From a virus (taxonomy: Duplodnaviria; Caudoviricetes), in IMG/VR virus record IMGVR_UViG_3300046786_000293, positions 1 through 64,000 of that record: a DNA stretch of 64,000 nt; one strand, given 5' to 3'. The notes under the pieces were generated by a model. It saw only the letters and a program-made list of their open reading frames with translations. It was not told the DNA's origin and did not search any database. Shown one piece after another: positions 199 to 53,624 of the stretch. Each line of letters starts with the position of its first letter. Within the stretch, counting starts at the first letter, position 1. The translations under genes were made by a program, and so were the position numbers.

Positions 199-477
199 TT
201 ACGTTGACAACTTCTCAATCTTTTTTACATTCATTACCTTAAATGATCTCCACTCGCTTTTGTCCAAACACCACACACTTAAGACTTCAGGATTGTATGC
301 TCTAGTCTTGTGATGCTCGGATAACTCCTTAGTAGGCAGTGCAGAATCACGCAAAGTACAAGGCATGGTTCTTTCTGATCCGTCCACTTTGGTAAATGTA
401 ATCACGTGATCTTCTTTAAGAATACCACGCAGATAATGATTACGTTCGTCTGCGGTCATTTGTTCAAATTCATTCAT
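199..477 (-). CDS. WYL-like SH3-fold protein (T4-like phage conserved, DUF2693/WYL_2 type)
   Basis: Motifs TFTKVDGSERTMPCTL and VWCLDKSEWRSF. Confidence 0.7.
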   Translation of the reverse strand: MNEFEQMTADERNHYLRGILKEDHVITFTKVDGSERTMPCTLRDSALPTKELSEHHKTRAYNPEVLSVWCLDKSEWRSFKVMNVKKIEKLST

Positions 478-650
478 TCTTTTGTCCTCAACATCTCAAA
501 CAATTCTTTCCCAAGTTTAGTTTTGAATTCTTCCTCAGTCATATGCACCAGGGTATCCATTGCCAGTTCCATTGGTAATCTTAATACGATTTCCATTTCT
601 GGGGCAAAGGTATCAGGATTCATTTTTATGTGTCTGCTGATTAATCTCAT
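474..650 (-). CDS. Hypothetical protein, 58 aa (not in ORF track)
   Basis: MRLISRHIKMNPDTFAPEMEIVLRLPMELAMDTLVHMTEEEFKTKLGKELFEMLRTKE; ATGA overlaps at both ends; GGAG RBS supplied by the upstream gene end. Confidence 0.7.
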   Translation of the reverse strand: MRLISRHIKMNPDTFAPEMEIVLRLPMELAMDTLVHMTEEEFKTKLGKELFEMLRTKE

Positions 651-880
651 TTTTCAACTCCGAAATGTTGTTTAATTTTTTTATGAAGGAATCCTTGATT
701 GTATCCGTACCCATCATGTCTAATTGTTTCAGATTGTAACACATCACAACATTCTTTCACAATCAACTCAGCGAACTTTTTGCAGAATGCAGAATTGGGT
801 TCAATTCGATATCGTTGATCCTCTGGATATTCTGCTGTATCAAACGCTTGGTCGGCAAGTTCTTTAATTCGTTCGTTCAT
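647..880 (-). CDS. MNERI-family hypervariable small protein, copy A
   Basis: MNERIKELA...KFAELIVKEC...KQHFGVEK. Confidence 0.85.
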   Translation of the reverse strand: MNERIKELADQAFDTAEYPEDQRYRIEPNSAFCKKFAELIVKECCDVLQSETIRHDGYGYNQGFLHKKIKQHFGVEK

Positions 881-1101
881 AGTTCAACTCCGAAATGTTT
901 CAACAAATCTTCTGGTTCAGGATGCCAAGCATTGTTAGCGTTATCATAACCTGAATTCTCATCCAGGAACTTAGCACATTCCCGAACAATCAACTCGGCG
1001 AACTTTTCCTGGTCCAGTGCTTTAATTTCGGTGTATCCGCCATCAGTGTATCCGACAACTTTTTGAGCCTGTTCAGCAAGTAGTTTAATTCGTTCGTTCA
1101 T
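877..1101 (-). CDS. MNERI-family hypervariable small protein, copy B
   Basis: MNERIKLLAEQA...KFAELIVREC...KHFGVEL. Confidence 0.85.
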   Translation of the reverse strand: MNERIKLLAEQAQKVVGYTDGGYTEIKALDQEKFAELIVRECAKFLDENSGYDNANNAWHPEPEDLLKHFGVEL

Positions 1102-4017: not shown

Positions 4018-4124
4018 TTTTACTCCTGATGCAGTATTATAACACATTTGGGTAATTTTGAGCAAATAGTCAAAAAAATGTGGCTAAAAAGCCACATTCC
4101 CAAATGTAATACTTGAGTATTAAT

Positions 4125-4748
4125 TTATTTTGAGGTGCCTACAACTTCTATTTCAACTCGACGGTTTTTAGCACGACCTGCGGCTGTTTTATTGTCTGCT
4201 ATAGGTTGGCGTTCGCCTTTTGAATCTGTATAAACACGAGTCTTTTCAATTCCTCGGGTAACTAAGTAAGCCTTAACCGCCTCTGCTCTTCGACGGCCGA
4301 GGTTCATATTATATGAATCTGACCCTATCGAGTCGGTATGCCCAACAGCAATGATAACTTCAAGAATAAACTCTTTGTTGATTTTTCCGACTAGTCCGTC
4401 TAATACCAGACGACCTTCGGGTTTAAGTACACTCTTATCAAAGTCAAACAAAGTATCAGTGGCGTAAGTTAATTTAACAATCTTAGATGCTTGTGGTTGG
4501 GGAGCCGGTAACGTAGCTACCGGAGTTGGTGCAACTACCGGAGCAGTAAATGTAGCTTGGATGCGGGGAACAGGTTTAATTGCACAATCACAATCAGGAT
4601 GTGTAGTGGCAGGGGTCCAAGAACTATTACGCCAGCATTGTTCTGAAGAGTTTTTCCAAGGTGTATCTGTAGAATTGACCCAATTATTAGTTTGAGCACT
4701 CACTAGGCCTGCACTCACGGCAACAATTGTAGTAATAAGTTTTTTCAT
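4125..4748 (-). CDS. ompA: OmpA family outer-membrane/peptidoglycan-binding protein, Betaproteobacteria type
   Basis: Signal peptide; N-terminal W-K-N...CWR...WTP...CD; Pro/Ala linker; OmpA_C motifs LFDFDKS, VGHTDSIGSDSYNMNLGRRRAEAV, NRRVEI. Confidence 0.92.
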   Translation of the reverse strand: MKKLITTIVAVSAGLVSAQTNNWVNSTDTPWKNSSEQCWRNSSWTPATTHPDCDCAIKPVPRIQATFTAPVVAPTPVATLPAPQPQASKIVKLTYATDTLFDFDKSVLKPEGRLVLDGLVGKINKEFILEVIIAVGHTDSIGSDSYNMNLGRRRAEAVKAYLVTRGIEKTRVYTDSKGERQPIADNKTAAGRAKNRRVEIEVVGTSK

Positions 4749-5427: not shown

Positions 5428-5651
5428 AATTTGGTTGTTTTGGTTACAAGGTAAGTCCTACCCCGGGTTTGGCACTATTAGGCCAATACAGCCTCGCGAC
5501 GAGCAGAAGCTAGCTTTACGCCTTTTCCGCTGAACTTGAAGCTACCATTTGTAGATGCTTTTGCATTTACTAGATTTATGCGATTAACGTTCGTCATCTA
5601 ACGTGCTGTCCACTCTGTTACTCTTTGCCCTGTCGAAACCATGGCAGGCCC
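5405..5651 (-). ncRNA. ssrA: Permuted tmRNA, coding piece (5' acceptor strand, D-loop, tag ORF)
   Basis: Starts GGGCCTGCCATGGTTTCGACAGGG (typical tmRNA 5' end); TAAAT|GCA resume context; tag ORF 5564-5478 ends in TAA. Confidence 0.88.
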
Positions 5652-5660
5652 ATCATAAAA

Positions 5661-5912
5661 TTACTTAATGTATTTGTTGATAACTTTAATTCCTGCGTAA
5701 GTTCCTAGCACAGTAAACATCATTTTGAATACTGTTGTCCAGTCAGTGGCATTACTTAAAGTTAGTTTAATAGGGCCTGCTTCGATGGAGTCTGTTGTTT
5801 TAGGATGATCTAAAAATTGAACATAATATAACAACAAATCCCAAGCATACTGGCTCAACAGATATATCGCAAACGATATAATAAAACCAGTAAACAAACC
5901 TCTACGATACAT
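5661..5912 (-). CDS. 83-aa two-TM protein inside the tmRNA intervening segment
   Basis: AGGAGA RBS directly after the tmRNA CCA; two hydrophobic segments; stop 9 nt before tmRNA G1. Confidence 0.8.
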   Translation of the reverse strand: MYRRGLFTGFIISFAIYLLSQYAWDLLLYYVQFLDHPKTTDSIEAGPIKLTLSNATDWTTVFKMMFTVLGTYAGIKVINKYIK

Positions 5913-5924
5913 TAAATCTCCTTA

Positions 5925-5990
5925 TGGTGGACCTGGCGGGAGTCGAACCCGCGTCCAGAACACTTTTCTCTTTGCTTCATACAGCAATAA
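5925..5990 (-). ncRNA. ssrA: Permuted tmRNA, acceptor piece (T-arm and CCA)
   Basis: ...GTTCTGGACGCGGGTTCGACTCCCGCCAGGTCCACCA; CAGGTCC pairs with GGGCCTG, giving a G3-U70 wobble. Confidence 0.9.
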
Positions 5991-6046: not shown

Positions 6047-6397
6047 TTACTCTGCAACAGCGTCAACGATGGCCTGAGCCTCGGACTTCTTAGAGCGAGC
6101 CTTAATAGCCTCGAGGCTGGGCTTTTCTGCCTTAGACGGCTTACTGACTTTGACAGTCTTAACTTCATTATACTTGGCATCTGCGGCATCGATTGCGGCA
6201 GTGTAACGAGCATCTGCATAGAGCTCAGTAGACTTGAGATAAGTAACCACTGCGGGCTTATCCATAGCCTCGGGCAGTTCGCGAAGCTCAATATCAGTAT
6301 GACCATTCTTGGCCAACACTTTAACACGAGTCATGTCATTGGCGAAACGAACTTTAGCTTCACCTTTGAGAACGGAAAGACCAGCAACTTTAAACAT
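6047..6397 (-). CDS. Conserved phage hypothetical protein with basic Ala/Lys-rich C-terminus
   Basis: 116-aa ORF with GGAG RBS, promoter upstream and terminator downstream. Confidence 0.8.
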   Translation of the reverse strand: MFKVAGLSVLKGEAKVRFANDMTRVKVLAKNGHTDIELRELPEAMDKPAVVTYLKSTELYADARYTAAIDAADAKYNEVKTVKVSKPSKAEKPSLEAIKARSKKSEAQAIVDAVAE

Positions 6398-6462
6398 AAA
6401 ATACTCCTAGAAAAAACAAGTTAGTTGAAAAACTGTTAACATCCATTTGCTAACATATTCAA

Positions 6463-6491
6463 ATTATAGTTGATTTTGGATTTGATGTCAA
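6463..6491 (-). promoter_or_regulatory. Sigma70 promoter
   Basis: TTGACA-17-TATAAT. Confidence 0.85.
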
Positions 6492-6544
6492 CCATTATTT
6501 GAATTCAGGTTTACCAAAATTAATTGGCAGATTCTTTTGAAAAT

Positions 6545-6817
6545 TTAGCCTTCGTAAATGGGACCAAACAGACCCAATTGGTCACAGACATCACCGGCCG
6601 CATCATCGAGACGGTCGGCAATGATTTCTTCTACCACAGTCATATCTTCGCCAACCATTGCTTCCTTGATGATTGTGAAAGCATCCTTCAATAGCAACTC
6701 GGCGAACTTGTAGATATCTACGCCATCTTCCAGGCCGTTTTCGGCATCACGGGCCAGACCGTATTTGTCTACAGTCATCCCGGCCTGTTCGGCCAGTTTT
6801 TCAATTCGTTTGTTCAC
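6545..6817 (-). CDS. MNERI-family protein, copy C (divergent C-terminus, GTG start)
   Basis: MNKRIEKLAEQAG...KFAELLLKD; lacks the HFGVE end. Confidence 0.8.
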   Translation of the reverse strand: MNKRIEKLAEQAGMTVDKYGLARDAENGLEDGVDIYKFAELLLKDAFTIIKEAMVGEDMTVVEEIIADRLDDAAGDVCDQLGLFGPIYEG

Positions 6818-6868
6818 GATTCAACTCCGAAATGTTGTTTGATTATTGGCACCGCATCGTCAACCAAA
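6814..6868 (-). pseudogene. Remnant 3' end of an MNERI-family gene fused to a -35 promoter fragment
   Basis: TTGGTTGACG followed by ...ATCAAACAACATTTCGGAGTTGAATCGTGA (IKQHFGVES*), with no start or middle part. Confidence 0.65.
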
Positions 6869-7042
6869 TTAGGCGTTCTTTTTAGGACGACCACGACCAC
6901 GTTTCGGGGCATCTGCAACCACGGCATTCTGATTGAGTTCAGCCAAACGGCCTGAATAAGCACCTTGCCCGGCTTTGTGGATCAATCCAGTTTGGGTAAA
7001 AGTAACAGTGCCGCCTTTAGAAGTAACAAAACCGTTTTTCAT
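6869..7042 (-). CDS. Small protein with C-terminal AT-hook
   Basis: MKNGFVTSKGG...KRGRGRPKKNA (GRP AT-hook core). Confidence 0.75.
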   Translation of the reverse strand: MKNGFVTSKGGTVTFTQTGLIHKAGQGAYSGRLAELNQNAVVADAPKRGRGRPKKNA

Positions 7043-7072
7043 TTCAATGTCCTTCTGTGTTGCAATATCAAT

Positions 7073-7105
7073 ATTATAGCAAAATTGGGAATTTTCGTCA
7101 ACCAA
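7073..7105 (-). promoter_or_regulatory. Repeated cassette early promoter
   Basis: TTGGTTGACG-AAAATTCCCAATTTTGC-TATAAT; 17-nt spacer; extended -10 TG. Confidence 0.9.
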
Positions 7106-7106
7106 T

Positions 7107-7364
7107 TTATTGGTCTTTCATCACGTAAGTGAACAGAATCCATTTGGCTTGATTCAGCATTTGGCGAATGTGTTCACGACTGTTTTCGTTTTGACCACTG
7201 AACGACAGCATTTCTTGTGCGTCGCTCATGAGGCTTGCGGCAACCATTGCAGGGCCTGAGAATTTGAAAGTGATGCTGGACTCGATGCTTTCACGAAGTT
7301 CGGCTTCGGAGCAACCATACATACGACGATCACGTTGTTGACTTTCGTTAAGGACTGCGGTCAT
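7107..7364 (-). CDS. Hypothetical protein (cassette gene)
   Basis: GGAG RBS; own promoter upstream. Confidence 0.8.
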   Translation of the reverse strand: MTAVLNESQQRDRRMYGCSEAELRESIESSITFKFSGPAMVAASLMSDAQEMLSFSGQNENSREHIRQMLNQAKWILFTYVMKDQ

Positions 7365-7394
7365 TTCAAACTCCTTTTGTGTTGCAATATCAAT

Positions 7395-7450
7395 ATTATA
7401 GCAAAATACCCAATTTCGAGCAACCGAAATTTTGTAATACTTTAGTACAC
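7395..7450 (-). promoter_or_regulatory. Repeated cassette promoter (TTGCTC variant) with partial upstream palindrome
   Basis: TTGCTC-17-TATAAT; GTAATAC half-site at 7434. Confidence 0.8.
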
Positions 7451-7642
7451 AAAACCTGCGGCTTCTTCTTTTGCAATCGCCAGATCCTTCAATTCAGCAA
7501 GAGCTTCTTCCTCAGTATCGAACCCGCAAGCATCATAGGAGCCATCGTACATCTTGACATAGTACGGACCGTTTCCGGGACTTGCTTCGGTGTCAATACC
7601 AACTTCGCCAACGCCTTCGATAACACGAGTAACTTGATCCAT
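7442..7642 (-). CDS. Small acidic hypothetical protein (cassette gene)
   Basis: Start MDQVTRV after GGAG. Confidence 0.8.
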   Translation of the reverse strand: MDQVTRVIEGVGEVGIDTEASPGNGPYYVKMYDGSYDACGFDTEEEALAELKDLAIAKEEAAGFVY

Positions 7643-7672
7643 TTTGTGCTCCTTCTTCCTTACTATGTCTAT

Positions 7673-7728
7673 ATTATAGCAAATTCGGGAATTTCGGTCA
7701 ACCAAAAAAAGTAATACTTTGGTATTAA
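7673..7728 (-). promoter_or_regulatory. Repeated cassette promoter with palindrome
   Basis: TTGACC-17-TATAAT; GTAATAC-TTTG-GTATTAA at 7711-7728. Confidence 0.9.
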
Positions 7729-7976
7729 CTATTAACAGTTTCGTAAGGACTGTAGATTTCCACAGCATCGGGGTTACTACGGACCCGGGTTACGTACTCA
7801 TTTTCCAGCAAAACACGGTCCCGGATAGCATTGTACACGCTAACGGGACTGTATAAAACCACAGTATGTTGAACTCCGCCGCCGTATTTGACACGGGACG
7901 ATTCAACGCGGCCCTTGACAGGAATAGATCCCATATAGTTGCCTTCGACGTGCATACCTTCCAAATTCCAGGACAT
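7725..7976 (-). CDS. Hypothetical protein (cassette gene)
   Basis: AGGAG RBS; own promoter. Confidence 0.8.
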   Translation of the reverse strand: MSWNLEGMHVEGNYMGSIPVKGRVESSRVKYGGGVQHTVVLYSPVSVYNAIRDRVLLENEYVTRVRSNPDAVEIYSPYETVNS

Positions 7977-8005
7977 ATGAACTCCTTGTTGCTTACAATA
8001 CCATA

Positions 8006-8038
8006 ATTATAGCAAAATAGGGAATTTCGAGCAACCAA
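8006..8038 (-). promoter_or_regulatory. Repeated cassette promoter (TTGCTC variant)
   Basis: TTGGTTGCTC-17-TATAAT. Confidence 0.85.
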
Positions 8039-8053
8039 AAAAGGTGTTGTTTT

Positions 8054-8413
8054 TTAGCTACAGATTTCGTTTGACAATCGTTGTGCTATGCTTTTTTGCT
8101 TACGCATATTGGCAGGCTGTCCAGTACCCAAATCGTCGTGTGTAAACATTCCGTACAATGTAATGACATTGCCATCCACTTTGTAGACTATGCTTAAATC
8201 TAAATTTAAATGAGCGTGTCGTATACCTGGTACAGCCTGTGTAAAAAATCCTGCACTTAAAAAAGGTTTATCACTTTTACCAAACTGCTGATTAGGATTA
8301 GTACGCTTTACTTCCATGAACTGGCGAAGCTTTTCTTTTAGTTGAGGATAAGGTTTGATCCTACTAAAGTAAGTTTCTTTATAAAGTTCACATCGACGAA
8401 ACGTTGTTTCCAT
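8054..8413 (-). CDS. YafQ/RelE-family mRNA interferase-like protein
   Basis: D-K-P...GIRHAHL..DLSIVYKV....TLY...THDDLG matches the YafQ pattern DHPL...GYRDAHVEPDWILIYKL...GTHAALFG. Confidence 0.72.
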   Translation of the reverse strand: METTFRRCELYKETYFSRIKPYPQLKEKLRQFMEVKRTNPNQQFGKSDKPFLSAGFFTQAVPGIRHAHLNLDLSIVYKVDGNVITLYGMFTHDDLGTGQPANMRKQKSIAQRLSNEICS

Positions 8414-8601
8414 TATTCCTGATCCCACGCATCCATTTCTGCCAGAAGTTCTTCATATGACATGGGTTTGGACCAGTTACAACTTTGTTCTTGTTGAACA
8501 ACACGCACGAGATCCTCTGTCTGGAAATTAGTGTCATTATTTTTGTCAATAGTTTCCGTTAGAGATTTTGTACTAGATACTTTAACTTCATTAATCTTCA
8601 T
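8413..8601 (-). CDS. Small acidic protein, candidate antitoxin
   Basis: 62 aa; TAATG overlap with the toxin start; acidic tail SYEELLAEMDAWDQE. Confidence 0.55.
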   Translation of the reverse strand: MKINEVKVSSTKSLTETIDKNNDTNFQTEDLVRVVQQEQSCNWSKPMSYEELLAEMDAWDQE

Positions 8602-27584: not shown

Positions 27585-27887
27585 TTACTTTAGAGAAATT
27601 GCTTTGTAGCATTCGATATATACTTTATTTGCAAATTCTTTACTTGCACGAATCTGGTATTCAATAGTTCTATATTGAGGTTCTTCGTATGCCGATATGA
27701 TAATCGAAAGAACCACTCTATTACCATCAGCAATTGCAATAACCTGTGAGGCTGGAATTCCAGCCTGCCGAAGATCCATAATCTTATATGACAGTTCCTG
27801 CAAGTCATTGCATACTATTTTTTGTGCATTGGCACTTAACGATCCAGCCAGCACCAGCATCGCCAAAATACTTTTTATCTTATTCAT
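27585..27887 (-). CDS. Exported hypothetical protein
   Basis: Signal peptide; ATGA overlap with MNERI copy E. Confidence 0.75.
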   Translation of the reverse strand: MNKIKSILAMLVLAGSLSANAQKIVCNDLQELSYKIMDLRQAGIPASQVIAIADGNRVVLSIIISAYEEPQYRTIEYQIRASKEFANKVYIECYKAISLK

Positions 27888-28132
27888 TCTTCAACTCCGA
27901 AATGTTCTTCAATCGCTTGTTTATATTGTATACCCAAGGCACCCGGTGTTTGGCAATAGGTCTTATAAGCAACTACACCACATTCCCGAACAATCAACTC
28001 AGCGAACTTTTCGTCGTATACTTCATCAACAGGCCAAACTGGTTTTTCGGGCGGCGGAACCACAAGACCATCGTGAACAGCCATTGTATACTCCCAGGCT
28101 TGTTTTTTAAGTTCCTCAATTCGTTCGTTCAT
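27884..28132 (-). CDS. MNERI-family protein, copy E
   Basis: MNERIEELKKQA...KFAELIVREC...EHFGVEE. Confidence 0.85.
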   Translation of the reverse strand: MNERIEELKKQAWEYTMAVHDGLVVPPPEKPVWPVDEVYDEKFAELIVRECGVVAYKTYCQTPGALGIQYKQAIEEHFGVEE

Positions 28133-28380
28133 AGTTCAACTCCGAAATGTTGTTTAATCTTATCTACAATTTGTTGGCTTTGCTGTATTCTTGCTCTATT
28201 CCAATTGGCATCCTGTTCATTGAACACTTCCATATCCTCAACATACTTTTTCTGCCCATCTGCAATATTCATACATTCCCGAACAATCAACTCGGCGAAC
28301 TTGGCCTTGTCAAAATACCGGAAACCATCGTGCTCTTCGGTAGTTGCCTGTTCAGCAAGTTTTTTAATTCGTTCGTTCAT
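28129..28380 (-). CDS. MNERI-family protein, copy F
   Basis: MNERIKKLAEQA...KFAELIVREC...KQHFGVEL. Confidence 0.85.
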   Translation of the reverse strand: MNERIKKLAEQATTEEHDGFRYFDKAKFAELIVRECMNIADGQKKYVEDMEVFNEQDANWNRARIQQSQQIVDKIKQHFGVEL

Positions 28381-28696: not shown

Positions 28697-28772
28697 CTCC
28701 TTTGTTGCAATACAAGTATTATAGCAAAAATGGGAATTTCGGTCAACCAAAAAAGTAATACTTAAGCATTAC
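28697..28772 (-). repeat. Cassette leader, promoter and palindrome; near-identical to 29048-29103
   Basis: TTGACC-17-TATAAT; shared ACTCCTTTGTTGCAATACAAGTATTATAGCAAAA; GTAATAC-TTAA-GCATTAC. Confidence 0.9.
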
Positions 28773-29041: not shown

Positions 29042-29047
29042 CTGAAA

Positions 29048-29158
29048 CTCCTTTGTTGCAATACAAGTATTATAGCAAAATTGGGATTTTCGGTCAACCA
29101 AAAAGAAACCCGCCAAAATAGCGGGTTATTATTACAAAATGTAATACTTAGGTATTAC
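29048..29158 (-). repeat. Cassette leader, promoter, GC hairpin and perfect palindrome
   Basis: TTGACC-17-TATAAT; CCCGC..GCGGG hairpin at 29106-29127; GTAATAC-TTAG-GTATTAC at 29141-29158. Confidence 0.9.
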
Positions 29159-51304: not shown

Positions 51305-51568
51305 TTATTTCCTTGATAAAATATCCCAATCCAATCCATGCCATGGTCGGAAACCTATTTCGCCCAGCCAAGTTTTTTGCTTGACAATCTCTGCCCACTC
51401 GCCTTCACTGTCTTGATAGACTACACGGCAAGAGCCAAATATATTCCGACACTCTTCAAAAACCAAGTCGGCATCGTTTGTGACACTGCGTCCGCCAAGG
51501 TCAAGGTCTCGGATAAACACAATGTCGCCTTCTTTTCTAACGAATTCCCAGCGGCTTCTTGACATCAT
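51305..51568 (-). CDS. Hypothetical protein
   Basis: SVTNDA...VVYQDSEGEW. Confidence 0.75.
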   Translation of the reverse strand: MMSRSRWEFVRKEGDIVFIRDLDLGGRSVTNDADLVFEECRNIFGSCRVVYQDSEGEWAEIVKQKTWLGEIGFRPWHGLDWDILSRK

Positions 51569-51801
51569 TCAACTCCGAAATGTTCTTTAATCCTGTCTTT
51601 AATAACTTGGGAAATATTGCCATTGATACCATCTTCACGACTATACCAAACCTGCTCCATACATTCTTCTACAATCAACTCGGCGAACTTTTTCATTTCT
51701 TCTTCACAGGTTTGATTATGGTATTCCAAATACCAGATATCTTTGTAATCTTCATAAAAAAATCCTGCTTGTATAGCAAGTTCTTTAATTCGTTCGTTCA
51801 T
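51565..51801 (-). CDS. MNERI-family protein, copy G
   Basis: MNERIKELAIQA...KFAELIVEEC...KEHFGVE. Confidence 0.85.
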   Translation of the reverse strand: MNERIKELAIQAGFFYEDYKDIWYLEYHNQTCEEEMKKFAELIVEECMEQVWYSREDGINGNISQVIKDRIKEHFGVE

Positions 51802-51802
51802 T

Positions 51803-51886
51803 TTAAAATCCATCTTTGACGATGACGGCCAGGCCCATGATAATGATAGGCAAGAGTACGATAATCAAATTGGTGATTGCAGTCAT
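51803..51886 (-). CDS. 27-aa hydrophobic peptide (not in ORF track)
   Basis: MTAITNLIIVLLPIIIMGLAVIVKDGF; GGAGA RBS. Confidence 0.6.
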   Translation of the reverse strand: MTAITNLIIVLLPIIIMGLAVIVKDGF

Positions 51887-52119
51887 TTAGTTTCTCCGTA
51901 AGCCAGTGCAAACATCATAAACTTTTTTTCGTCTTTGATAATACCATGATTCCAATAATTTTGACGGTTCTTGGTAAGCCCAATGCCAAATTCATTAAGT
52001 GCAATTTTTTGCATCAATCCTTGGTATCCACGAGCATTCGGGTAGCGTACCCAAGCCAACTGATATGAGACATTAAGAATGTTATTTCTAATAGAGGTGC
52101 TAACCCTGTTCATCGCCAT
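51883..52119 (-). CDS. Hypothetical protein
   Basis: ORF in the chain with overlaps. Confidence 0.65.
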   Translation of the reverse strand: MAMNRVSTSIRNNILNVSYQLAWVRYPNARGYQGLMQKIALNEFGIGLTKNRQNYWNHGIIKDEKKFMMFALAYGETK

Positions 52120-52397
52120 TCGCTCCCACGGTTAATTTCTTCCTCTGTGAATTGTCCACCCATACGATCCGGATTCTCTTTCCAGGAATCGTATGAGGCC
52201 TTTTCCATGCACTTCTCCACATCGGCCAGGATAGCACGGAGTTCATCGATGTTGATCTTCAGGAGTTCTTGCACGGAATGGAGAGCAATGTCTTCTCTAC
52301 AGTCGGCGATGCACCGGGCGGCACGAACCTCGGCAAGATACTTTTCCTTGCCGGCAATGGTATTTTTTAAGTTATCGCGGACGGTTTGGATGTTCAT
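52110..52397 (-). CDS. Hypothetical protein
   Basis: ATGA overlap with MNERI copy H; ends SWKENPDRMGGQF. Confidence 0.75.
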   Translation of the reverse strand: MNIQTVRDNLKNTIAGKEKYLAEVRAARCIADCREDIALHSVQELLKINIDELRAILADVEKCMEKASYDSWKENPDRMGGQFTEEEINRGSEWR

Positions 52398-52627
52398 TCT
52401 TCAACTCCGAAATGTTTCTTAATCGTAGCCGCATATTGATGAGGTCCTGGATTTACATAGGCCATTGCTAAACATCTATCAGCACATTCTTTCACAATCA
52501 ACTCAGCGAACTTTTGTTGCTGTTCCAACCAACCTTCACAATACACACGGCCAAAGTATTCGGGATCGGTGCTGTTGAAAAAGTCTATACCAGCCTGTTC
52601 AGCCAGTTTTTTAATTCGTTCGTTCAT
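52394..52627 (-). CDS. MNERI-family protein, copy H
   Basis: MNERIKKLAEQAG...KFAELIVKEC...KKHFGVEE. Confidence 0.85.
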   Translation of the reverse strand: MNERIKKLAEQAGIDFFNSTDPEYFGRVYCEGWLEQQQKFAELIVKECADRCLAMAYVNPGPHQYAATIKKHFGVEE

Positions 52628-52628
52628 A

Positions 52629-52793
52629 TCAATCCCTATCATAGCATCGTTTGTGGCTGATCAAGTCGCTATGAGTTTGGACCACAGCATTGTGAATACC
52701 AATCTTGGTTGAGCGATACAGGCTCTTGCTCAGGTGAATAACAAATAGCAAGGGCAGGAGCAGGTAGCCTGCATAGTATTCAACGGTCTTCAT
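52629..52793 (-). CDS. Small membrane protein
   Basis: Start MKTVEYY after AAGGAG. Confidence 0.65.
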   Translation of the reverse strand: MKTVEYYAGYLLLPLLFVIHLSKSLYRSTKIGIHNAVVQTHSDLISHKRCYDRD

Positions 52794-53034: not shown

Positions 53035-53064
53035 GATCAACTCCTTTTTGCTTTCTATGTATGT

Positions 53065-53116
53065 ATTATAGCAAAATTGGTAATTTCGAGCAACCAAAAA
53101 ATGTAATACTTAATAC
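53065..53116 (-). promoter_or_regulatory. Repeated cassette promoter (TTGCTC variant) with GTAATAC half-site
   Basis: TTGGTTGCTC-17-TATAAT. Confidence 0.85.
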
Positions 53117-53424
53117 TGATTCAATTGGGGTTGCAGTTCTGCAATGGTGCTACGCTCAAAAGCGTGGGCATCTTTGCGGCCACGTACAACGGCCAAAACA
53201 TCCAGTTCAAATGCATCAGCACCGTGTTCGCGGATGCTGGCACACAGGGCCCAATCCTTGTTTTCCGTCAGCGCACGACGAACGTGCTTTTGCCAACGAA
53301 CTTTAAGGGCTTTCTTGAGTTGCTGGCCGCAAACAGTAATACCTACGTAGTACTCCATAGTGTTGGTGTTCACTAACATATAGACAGCGTGTTTACGGTC
53401 GTTACGGGCTTTGCGTTTCATCAT
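53110..53424 (-). CDS. GIY-YIG domain protein
   Basis: AVYMLVN...YYVGIT...RWQKH...E. Confidence 0.8.
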   Translation of the reverse strand: MMKRKARNDRKHAVYMLVNTNTMEYYVGITVCGQQLKKALKVRWQKHVRRALTENKDWALCASIREHGADAFELDVLAVVRGRKDAHAFERSTIAELQPQLNQY

Positions 53425-53430
53425 ACAAGT

Positions 53431-53463
53431 ATTATAGCAAAAAACACATTTTCGAGCAACCAA
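53431..53463 (-). promoter_or_regulatory. Repeated cassette promoter (TTGCTC variant), only 6 nt above the ATG
   Basis: TTGGTTGCTC-17-TATAAT. Confidence 0.85.
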
Positions 53464-53489
53464 AATTAGTACTAGAAAAGTACTACTTT

Positions 53490-53624
53490 TTACACAGTTT
53501 CTGCTTCAAAAATCTGTTGCGTAATAACAACACCCCCATACAACGATTGATAAAGTTCTGCTACAGACTTGACAAAAAATTGCATGATTCGTCCATCTTT
53601 TGTAAGGAGTGTGTATTGCATCAT
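53490..53624 (-). CDS. 44-aa hypothetical protein (not in ORF track)
   Basis: MMQYTLLTKDGRIMQFFVKSVAELYQSLYGGVVITQQIFEAETV. Confidence 0.65.
   Translation of the reverse strand: MMQYTLLTKDGRIMQFFVKSVAELYQSLYGGVVITQQIFEAETV

What the first reader, a model, noticed from the sequence alone, without database searches (positions are those of the whole stretch)
6400..8050. Array of one-gene cassettes, each bounded by a stop-containing palindrome and a near-identical promoter
Seen: promoters TTGGTTG(ACC/ACG/CTC)GAAA-N-TTTGCTATAAT with 17-nt spacers at 7073, 7395, 7673 and 8006 (also 28718, 29069, 53065, 53431), each driving one short unrelated ORF. Upstream of several sits GTAATAC-N4-GTATTAC (perfect at 29141; variants at 4106, 7434, 7711, 28755, 53103), and the preceding gene's TAA usually lies inside it. 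Known: T4-type phages shuffle genes by recombination between repeated early-promoter stem-loop (PeSL) units. Inference: this is an analogous but distinct unit. The palindrome may be a terminator, a repressor operator or a recombination site.
Basis: partly seen in the sequence, partly recalled or inferred. Interest (0 to 1): 0.68.

Follow-up and report, generated by a model that had tools for sequence, protein, structure and literature searches.

The report
Shuffled phage genes with swappable operators
A giant freshwater phage keeps small genes in units bounded by repeated promoters that recombine, as T4-type phages do, but each unit ends in a probable protein-binding site (one type also found at its likely host's outer-membrane gene promoters), so adding or losing a gene probably changes how the next gene is controlled.

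Summary
The array is real. The genome is a 338-kb T4-like (Gp23) jumbo phage, probably infecting the Limnohabitans family. Repeated sigma70 promoter-leader units (~60 bp) bound small genes, and content varies among 56 relatives. Six indels have both ends in promoter units (0.3 expected). This is PeSL-type shuffling, a known mechanism.

The palindrome X (GTAATAC-N4-GTATTAC) is probably not the PeSL terminator: weak hairpin, often no U-tract, arms that vary without compensation, and true terminators can lie between it and the -35. It sits 0-1, 8-12, ~21, ~32, ~43 or ~54 bp from the -35, one helix face, and resembles ribbon-helix-helix operators (CopA-SO; sites before RHH antitoxin genes in Limnohabitans).

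A second palindrome Y (TGTNGY-N6-RCAACA, 8045-8062) fills the same slot and is conserved at betaproteobacterial ompA/gyrA and porin promoters, so it is probably a host regulator's site.

Both lie outside the crossover zone and travel with the upstream gene, so an indel swaps the next gene's operator. Neither binding protein was identified; activation versus repression is open. Only one full X lies in 6400-8050. The scan noted X's phasing before in other genomes.

The parts
8045..8062 (-). Palindrome Y (TGTAGC-N6-ACAACA), 10 bp upstream of the -35; contains the TAA stop of the upstream RelE/YafQ-like gene (8054-8413)
   Evidence: same motif at host ompA/porin promoters
7977..8034 (-). Promoter-leader unit 1: -35 TTGCTC 8034-8029, 17-bp spacer, extended -10 TGCTATAAT ending 8006, leader with AGGAG
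7725..7976 (-). Cassette ORF, 83 aa, no Pfam/PHROG family; its TAA is in the left arm of X
7711..7728 (.). Palindrome X (one mismatch), 9 bp upstream of the -35
7643..7701 (-). Promoter-leader unit 2 (-35 TTGACC 7701-7696, -10 ends 7673)
7442..7642 (-). Cassette ORF, 66 aa, acidic, no family; TAA in the spacer of the degenerate X
7434..7451 (.). Degenerate X (promoter-proximal box intact), 10 bp upstream of the -35
7365..7423 (-). Promoter-leader unit 3 (-35 TTGCTC, -10 ends 7395); shares a 30-bp exact stretch with unit 4
7107..7364 (-). Cassette ORF, 85 aa, widespread at this locus in relatives (family F7), preceded by X, Y or neither in different phages
7043..7101 (-). Promoter-leader unit 4 (-35 TTGACG, -10 ends 7073); no palindrome upstream
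6869..7042 (-). Cassette ORF, 57 aa, weak AT-hook at the C-terminus (E 0.027)
6545..6817 (-). Second ORF of the same cassette, 90 aa; by inspection a member of an expanded phage family (MNERIKELA...KFAELIV)
6463..6491 (-). Consensus sigma70 promoter (12/12) of the conserved anchor gene; right boundary of the variable region
6047..6397 (-). Conserved 116-aa anchor gene with Lys/Ala-rich tail, present in all 7 genomes compared; no fold match
4065..4123 (-). X (4106-4123, 40 bp from the -35) plus Y (4079-4096, 13 bp from the -35) before a related promoter; follows phage ompA
28691..28772 (-). Second array: X 28755-28772 (8 bp from the -35) and promoter-leader unit
29042..29158 (-). Second array: perfect X 29141-29158 (43 bp from the -35), then a GC-rich terminator hairpin (~29105-29126), then the promoter-leader unit; shares 34 exact bp with the 28746 unit
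53035..53120 (-). Third array: X half-site (9 bp from the -35) and promoter-leader unit
53425..53532 (-). Third array: degenerate X 53469-53486 (9 bp), Y 53515-53532 (55 bp) and promoter before a GIY-YIG gene (53110-53424)

Best explanation
A hyperplastic region of a T4-like jumbo phage. SHOWN: small genes sit between near-identical ~60-bp units (-35, spacer, extended -10, leader, Shine-Dalgarno); genes are gained and lost among relatives with both indel ends inside these units; the palindromes lie just outside the shared unit, at the 3' end of the upstream gene, and move with it. INFERRED: the exchanges are homologous crossovers by the phage's UvsX/UvsY system (PeSL mini-circle type excision and integration). 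INFERRED: X and Y are double-stranded DNA binding sites for dimeric or tetrameric regulators that sit on one helix face relative to RNA polymerase and tune these host-sigma70 early promoters. X (two GTANTAC boxes 11 bp apart) is most likely read by a ribbon-helix-helix protein; Y is most likely read by a host regulator that also acts at betaproteobacterial ompA/gyrA and porin promoters. Consequence: inserting or deleting a cassette replaces the operator in front of the next gene. For direction I lean slightly to shut-off or damping for X (promoters are near-consensus; the known GTANTAC binder is a repressor) and to activation for Y (the site lies upstream of genes for abundant host outer-membrane proteins); both leanings are weak.
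For: Variable content between fixed flanks in 56 loci. Six of 77 non-redundant insertions have both ends in promoter units against 0.33 expected, with overlap from about -3 to +55 of the -35; base-level alignment of L127/L131 shows crossovers downstream of X. UvsX, UvsY, SSB present. X-to--35 distances: in 58 dereplicated metagenome sites 0-1 (8), 8-12 (43), 21 (4), none at 2-7 or 13-20; longer classes at 29-35, 40-45, 52-54, Rayleigh R 0.72 at period 11; GC hairpins show no such peaks. X hairpin -0.7 to -5.9 kcal/mol for window copies against -12 to -14 for true terminators; only 20 of 43 sites at 8-12 have a U-tract and the 0 class has none. Centre bases of the arms are mostly non-complementary when they vary (A/C 13, A/G 8, G/G 4, against G/C 4); spacer occurs equally as TTGA and TCAA. 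CopA-SO, an RHH protein, binds GTANTAC-N3-GTANTAC (PMC8706911); N4 versions precede CopG-type RHH genes in the Limnohabitans genus. Y: 27 of 81 Burkholderiales genomes against 2 for two controls, next to porin, OmpA, FadL, pilin genes, 37-39 bp before the predicted -35 in seven; in 25 of 30 ompA promoters of the Limnohabitans family. X and Y largely exclude each other (9 both, 21 expected).
Against: No binding protein found: no RHH_1 or CopG_antitoxin hit in five phage genomes, none with an HMM of the host RHH proteins in seven, and no DNA-binding candidate tracks X presence. X begins at the stop codon or tRNA end of the upstream gene, as a 3'-end RNA signal would. Sites are not fully independent (shared descent), and part of the X set was fetched by the perfect pattern. 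Y's period is about 12 bp, not 10.5, and weak beyond 12 bp (R 0.43). X promoters do not have weaker -35 boxes (p 0.56). Host is inferred from OmpA similarity only. No binding or transcription data.
Confidence: 0.62

Rival explanations
1. X (and Y) are weak intrinsic terminators or RNA 3'-end hairpins, the plain stem-loop of a PeSL; the 8-12 bp spacing is just a U-tract doubling as an UP element.
For: They start at the upstream stop codon or tRNA end and travel with the upstream gene; the same gene ends in X, Y or a GC hairpin in different phages; 20 of 43 X sites at 8-12 bp have a U-tract; A/T flanks can extend the stem to -8.7 kcal/mol.
Against: Over half lack a U-tract yet keep the spacing; the 0-bp class has none; separate strong terminators lie between X and the -35 (window 29105-29126; L032, L049, L061, L104, L106); arm changes are mostly non-compensatory; fixed 18-bp length; Y's interior is unpaired and Y is conserved upstream of host promoters.
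Confidence: 0.15
2. X and Y are protein-bound insulators or roadblocks that stop read-through between cassettes rather than touching RNA polymerase at the next promoter.
For: Position at gene ends and interchangeability with terminators; triple-box arrays (genome 271560-271588, 103263-103291) would give a strong block.
Against: A roadblock would not need phasing to the downstream -35, nor be needed upstream of an existing terminator; Y is tied to promoters in host genomes.
Confidence: 0.12
3. X is a site-specific recombination site (integron-attC-like cassette boundary).
For: Cassette-like layout; conserved palindrome at many boundaries.
Against: Crossovers map downstream of X inside the promoter unit; promoter-to-promoter indels occur with no X (L490/G009); genomes G002, G008, G009 have the arrays without X; no tyrosine or serine recombinase found in five genomes.
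Confidence: 0.04
4. The palindromes are DNA-shape or polymerase-subunit elements (UP-like sites read by the alpha subunit) or hitch-hiking relics with no dedicated binder.
For: AT-rich, upstream of the -35, phased; no binder found in the phage.
Against: Invariant G/C arm positions across divergent phages; X is lineage-specific while the promoters are shared; matching operators sit before RHH genes in bacteria.
Confidence: 0.07

Closest known systems
PeSL (promoter-early stem-loop) cassettes of T4-type phages RB49/phi1, T4/PST, KVP40/nt-1 (Arbiol 2010, PMC2839356; Comeau 2014, PMC4122927)
   Same: T4-like phage; repeated sigma70-like promoter plus Shine-Dalgarno units between small genes in hyperplastic regions; indels bounded by the units; crossovers between -10 and SD were also reported there.
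   Different: The PeSL upstream element is a stable, variable G/C stem-loop with measured terminator activity. Here the slot holds one of two fixed-sequence 18-bp AT-rich palindromes phased to the -35, a GC terminator, both, or nothing; the palindrome is outside the crossover zone.
CopA-SO ribbon-helix-helix antitoxin operator, GTANTAC-N3-GTANTAC (PMC8706911)
   Same: Identical 7-bp self-palindromic box in tandem.
   Different: Spacer 4 not 3; here dozens of phage promoters rather than one or two TA operons; site is upstream of the -35 at helical multiples; no cognate RHH gene found in the phage.
Phage phi29 protein p4 switch (PMC3100819)
   Same: Inverted-repeat sites upstream of host-sigma promoters through which one factor activates or represses phage promoters.
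   Different: p4 is phage-encoded, has four sites at one locus and an unrelated sequence; no homology tested or implied.
Promoters of jumbo phage PA5oct (PMC7318152)
   Same: Related capsid (67%); 32 TTGAC/TATAATA promoters read by host RNA polymerase.
   Different: X not enriched in PA5oct, CBB, Vibrio 2.275.O or Phosso; no upstream palindrome found in the passages read.
PpsR/CrtJ site TGT-N12-ACA and Pseudomonas HexR site TGTTGT-N-ACAACA (recalled from memory, not tested)
   Same: Y fits TGT-N12-ACA in length and ends.
   Different: Y's host targets are ompA/gyrA, porins, FadL and pilin, not photosynthesis or sugar genes; no paper naming Y was found.

Membership tests
PeSL cassettes | Host is a T4-type phage | tested here: met
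   Gp23 E 5.6e-99; 65-70% identity to capsids of PA5oct, CBB, GAP32; UvsX/UvsY/SSB
PeSL cassettes | Repeated near-consensus sigma70 promoter with AT-rich upstream region, SD and ATG | tested here: met
   29 such promoters genome-wide, nearly all before small genes
PeSL cassettes | Located in hyperplastic regions with gene content differing between relatives | tested here: met
PeSL cassettes | Indels bounded by the repeated units | tested here: met
   6 of 77 events against 0.33 expected; alignment
PeSL cassettes | Stable stem-loop upstream of the promoter that acts as a terminator | tested here: not met
   None in 6400-8050 by scan; X folds at -0.7 to -5.9 kcal/mol. Met at other units of the genome (29105-29126 and similar); activity itself not testable
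PeSL cassettes | Excised mini-circles during infection | not testable with these tools
   needs inverse PCR or junction reads
RHH (CopG/CopA-type) operator | Tandem short palindromic boxes about one helical turn apart | tested here: met
   GTANTAC boxes 11 bp apart, sometimes three; same geometry before RHH genes in L677, L692, L695, L630
RHH (CopG/CopA-type) operator | A cognate RHH protein encoded nearby or in the genome | tested here: inconclusive
   No hit with PF01402, PF12441 or a custom HMM; short divergent RHH proteins are easily missed and the binder could be host-encoded
RHH (CopG/CopA-type) operator | Sequence-specific binding | not testable with these tools
   needs EMSA or footprinting
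Site-specific recombination cassette (integron-like) | Dedicated recombinase | tested here: inconclusive
   PF00589 and PF00239 not found in five genomes at E 0.1; other families not searched
Site-specific recombination cassette (integron-like) | Crossover inside the palindromic site | tested here: not met
   crossovers lie between the -35 and the SD; events occur without X
Intrinsic terminator | GC-rich stable hairpin followed by a U-tract, with compensatory variation | tested here: not met

The most novel reading that the evidence does not exclude
These phages run a combinatorial regulatory shuffle: each mobile gene carries at its tail an operator for the next gene, drawn from two systems, an RHH-type site and a site copied from an undescribed betaproteobacterial regulator of ompA/gyrA and porin promoters, so the phage plugs its early accessory genes into a host envelope regulon and rewires them with every insertion or deletion.
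Probability: 0.35. Interest if true: 0.8.

Novelty: new variant of a known kind. Interest (0 to 1): 0.62.

Why it matters
PeSL shuffling was thought to move transcriptionally insulated genes. If the tail element is an operator for the next promoter, shuffling also changes regulation, which gives accessory genes a way to sample expression programmes. Y points to a conserved regulator of outer-membrane genes across Betaproteobacteria that I could not find described, and gives an 18-bp bait to purify it from cultured strains; its presence in phage promoters also supports a host assignment for an abundant uncultured freshwater phage group. The shuffling itself is ordinary.

Tried and rejected
Rfam: only the permuted tmRNA, nothing at the array. 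BLASTN/tblastn of the locus and anchor against cultured phages: no match; X not enriched in four cultured relatives. X as a broad host regulon: 78 perfect hits in 596 Gb of genomes, about chance by my estimate; not above control in 151 family genomes, 161 order genomes or four single genomes; the genus search used too strict a spacer and is uninformative; single perfect sites before a type I secretion operon in two MAGs remain unexplained. Binder search: presence/absence over 7 genomes gave no DNA-binding candidate; the AbrB/MazE-like gene (genome 330589-330780, PF04014) is acidic, present in X-less genomes and not found in X-bearing G006; the anchor protein's model matched nothing (best Z 3.8); a conserved 95-aa protein hit only unnamed clusters. 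Triple boxes in G002/G003 proved to be coding sequence. Activator test by -35 quality: no difference for X, weak for Y (p 0.04). AT-rich Y pattern found nothing in the Limnohabitans family until the spacer constraint was dropped. Literature: no paper found for X in phages or for Y; HexR, RegA and PpsR as Y binders were considered from memory and could not be confirmed.

Full report
Context. The window is the first 64 kb of a 338,510-bp virus record, 39% GC, 97% complete. It encodes a Gp23 capsid 65-70% identical to those of PA5oct, CBB and GAP32, and UvsX, UvsY and a single-strand binding protein: a T4-like jumbo phage. Its OmpA gene (4125-4748) is about 60% identical to ompA of the Limnohabitans family, the best match in an order-wide sample, which suggests but does not prove the host.

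Observation. The eight promoters are where stated, on the minus strand, with none expected by chance; a weight matrix finds 29 in the genome, clustered before small genes. The palindrome X is real (6 against 0.4; genome-wide 13 sites against 1 in the control, 8 of them within 80 nt upstream of a scored promoter). The title overstates: within 6400-8050 there is one full X (7711), one half-site (7434), two promoters with none, and at 8045-8062 a different palindrome, Y. One cassette holds two genes. The upstream stop is inside X in five of seven window copies. None of the cassette proteins has a family, apart from a weak AT-hook.

Shuffling. Fifty-six relatives of the flanking 116-aa gene show different small genes, separated by the same promoters, upstream of it. 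L127 and L131 (about 85% identical) differ by two single-gene indels whose ends lie in promoter units; X stays with the upstream gene. Across 151 loci and genomes, 6 of 77 non-redundant insertions have both ends in promoter units, against 0.33 expected, with the duplicated stretch running from about 3 nt before the -35 to the Shine-Dalgarno. Neighbouring units share up to 30-34 exact bases. This matches PeSL behaviour as published (PMC2839356; PMC4122927). No tyrosine or serine recombinase was found, and such indels also occur where X is absent, so homologous recombination is the inferred route.

X is probably a DNA site, not the terminator. Window copies fold at -0.7 to -5.9 kcal/mol, against -12 to -14 for GC hairpins that often lie between X and the -35. 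In 58 dereplicated metagenome sites fetched with a free 0-30 gap, distances to the -35 were 0-1 (8), 8-12 (43), 21 (4), 24, 28, 30, with none at 2-7 or 13-20; fewer than half of the 8-12 class have a U-tract. In an 80-90-nt window further classes appear at 29-35, 40-45 and 52-54 (R 0.72 at period 11), whereas GC hairpins are spread out. The central base of each arm varies independently, mostly breaking the pair, and the spacer occurs in both orientations. X is therefore two self-palindromic GTANTAC boxes 11 bp apart, sometimes three. The RHH antitoxin CopA-SO binds GTANTAC-N3-GTANTAC (PMC8706911), and N4 versions lie 22-33 bp before CopG-type RHH genes in the Limnohabitans genus and one other genome. 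X is confined to some phage lineages (G000, G001, G006; absent from G002, G008, G009, which have the same promoters) and is not a broad host regulon. The binder was not found.

Y. TGTNGY-N6-RCAACA occupies the same slot (peak 8-12 bp; 69 of 359 promoters; both X and Y in 9, 21 expected). Unlike X, it is enriched in betaproteobacterial chromosomes (27 of 81 genomes, controls 2 and 2), next to porin, OmpA, FadL and pilin genes, 37-39 bp before the predicted -35 in seven cases, and it is conserved in the gyrA-ompA intergenic region of 25 of 30 genomes of the Limnohabitans family, at 24, 33-37 or 45-49 bp from the inferred ompA -35 and, by inspection, 12-13 bp from a -10-like hexamer facing gyrA. 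Host and phage spacings share a period near 12 bp, weak in the phage beyond the first class. I found no paper naming this site.

Mechanism. Shown: repeated promoter units, promoter-bounded indels, palindromes linked to the upstream gene, phasing, and operator switches across indels (the F7 gene has Y before it in L127 and X in L131). Inferred: protein binding, the RHH nature of the X binder, the host origin of the Y binder, and any effect on transcription. The sign is open: X promoters have normal -35 boxes.

Verdict. The shuffling is a new instance of a known system. The replacement of the terminator stem-loop by two interchangeable, phased, probable operators, one shared with host envelope-gene promoters, makes it a new variant. 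Earlier unchecked notes of this scan saw X and its phasing in two other genomes; I reproduced this independently. Interest 0.62.

Noticed in passing
window 5537-5986 (-): Permuted (two-piece) tmRNA gene (Rfam RF04321, 104.9 bits) whose intervening segment holds an 83-codon ORF (5661-5912), a probable membrane protein.
   Followed up: partly
window 4125-4748 (-): Phage-encoded OmpA, 60% identical to Limnohabitans-family ompA; lies near the tmRNA gene, as ompA and a tmRNA-like match do in the host genome G011 (C44:5204-7452), though in different order.
   Followed up: partly
window 8054-8601 (-): Gene pair directly upstream of the array: 62-aa acidic ORF overlapping a 119-aa RelE/YafQ-like ORF (weak hits, E 0.006-0.02); looks like a toxin-antitoxin-type pair.
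   Followed up: partly
L644-L673 (gyrA-ompA intergenic) and L606-L617: Motif Y is a conserved, apparently undescribed site at betaproteobacterial ompA/gyrA, porin, FadL and pilin promoters; worth a study of its own.
   Followed up: partly
L573:2288-2305, L546:7285-7302: Perfect X upstream of a type I secretion operon (TolC-family, ABC, membrane-fusion genes) in a Limnohabitans MAG and a Burkholderiales MAG.
   Followed up: partly
L643:1479-1529: Four GTANTAC-like boxes at 11-bp period upstream of a gene that looks like a class II cyclic-nucleotide phosphodiesterase in a betaproteobacterial genome.
   Followed up: no
window 6440-6500 (-): The anchor gene's promoter and leader (TGTTAGC...GCTAACA hairpin-like) are strongly conserved across relatives; possible autoregulatory element.
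   Followed up: no
window 199-477 (-); genome 330589-330780; genome 298353-298619: Conserved small genes with possible regulatory roles: stand-alone WYL_2 domain, acidic AbrB/MazE-like protein, and a PHROG 'transcriptional regulator' (DsbA-like by my recollection).
   Followed up: partly
window 647-1101, 6545-6817, 27884-28380, 51565-52642: An expanded family of small helical proteins (MNERIKELA...KFAELIV...HFGVE) with at least eight copies in the genome.
   Followed up: no
genome 115213-115230, 121073-121090: X-like sites directly after the CCA ends of apparent tRNA genes, followed by promoters.
   Followed up: no
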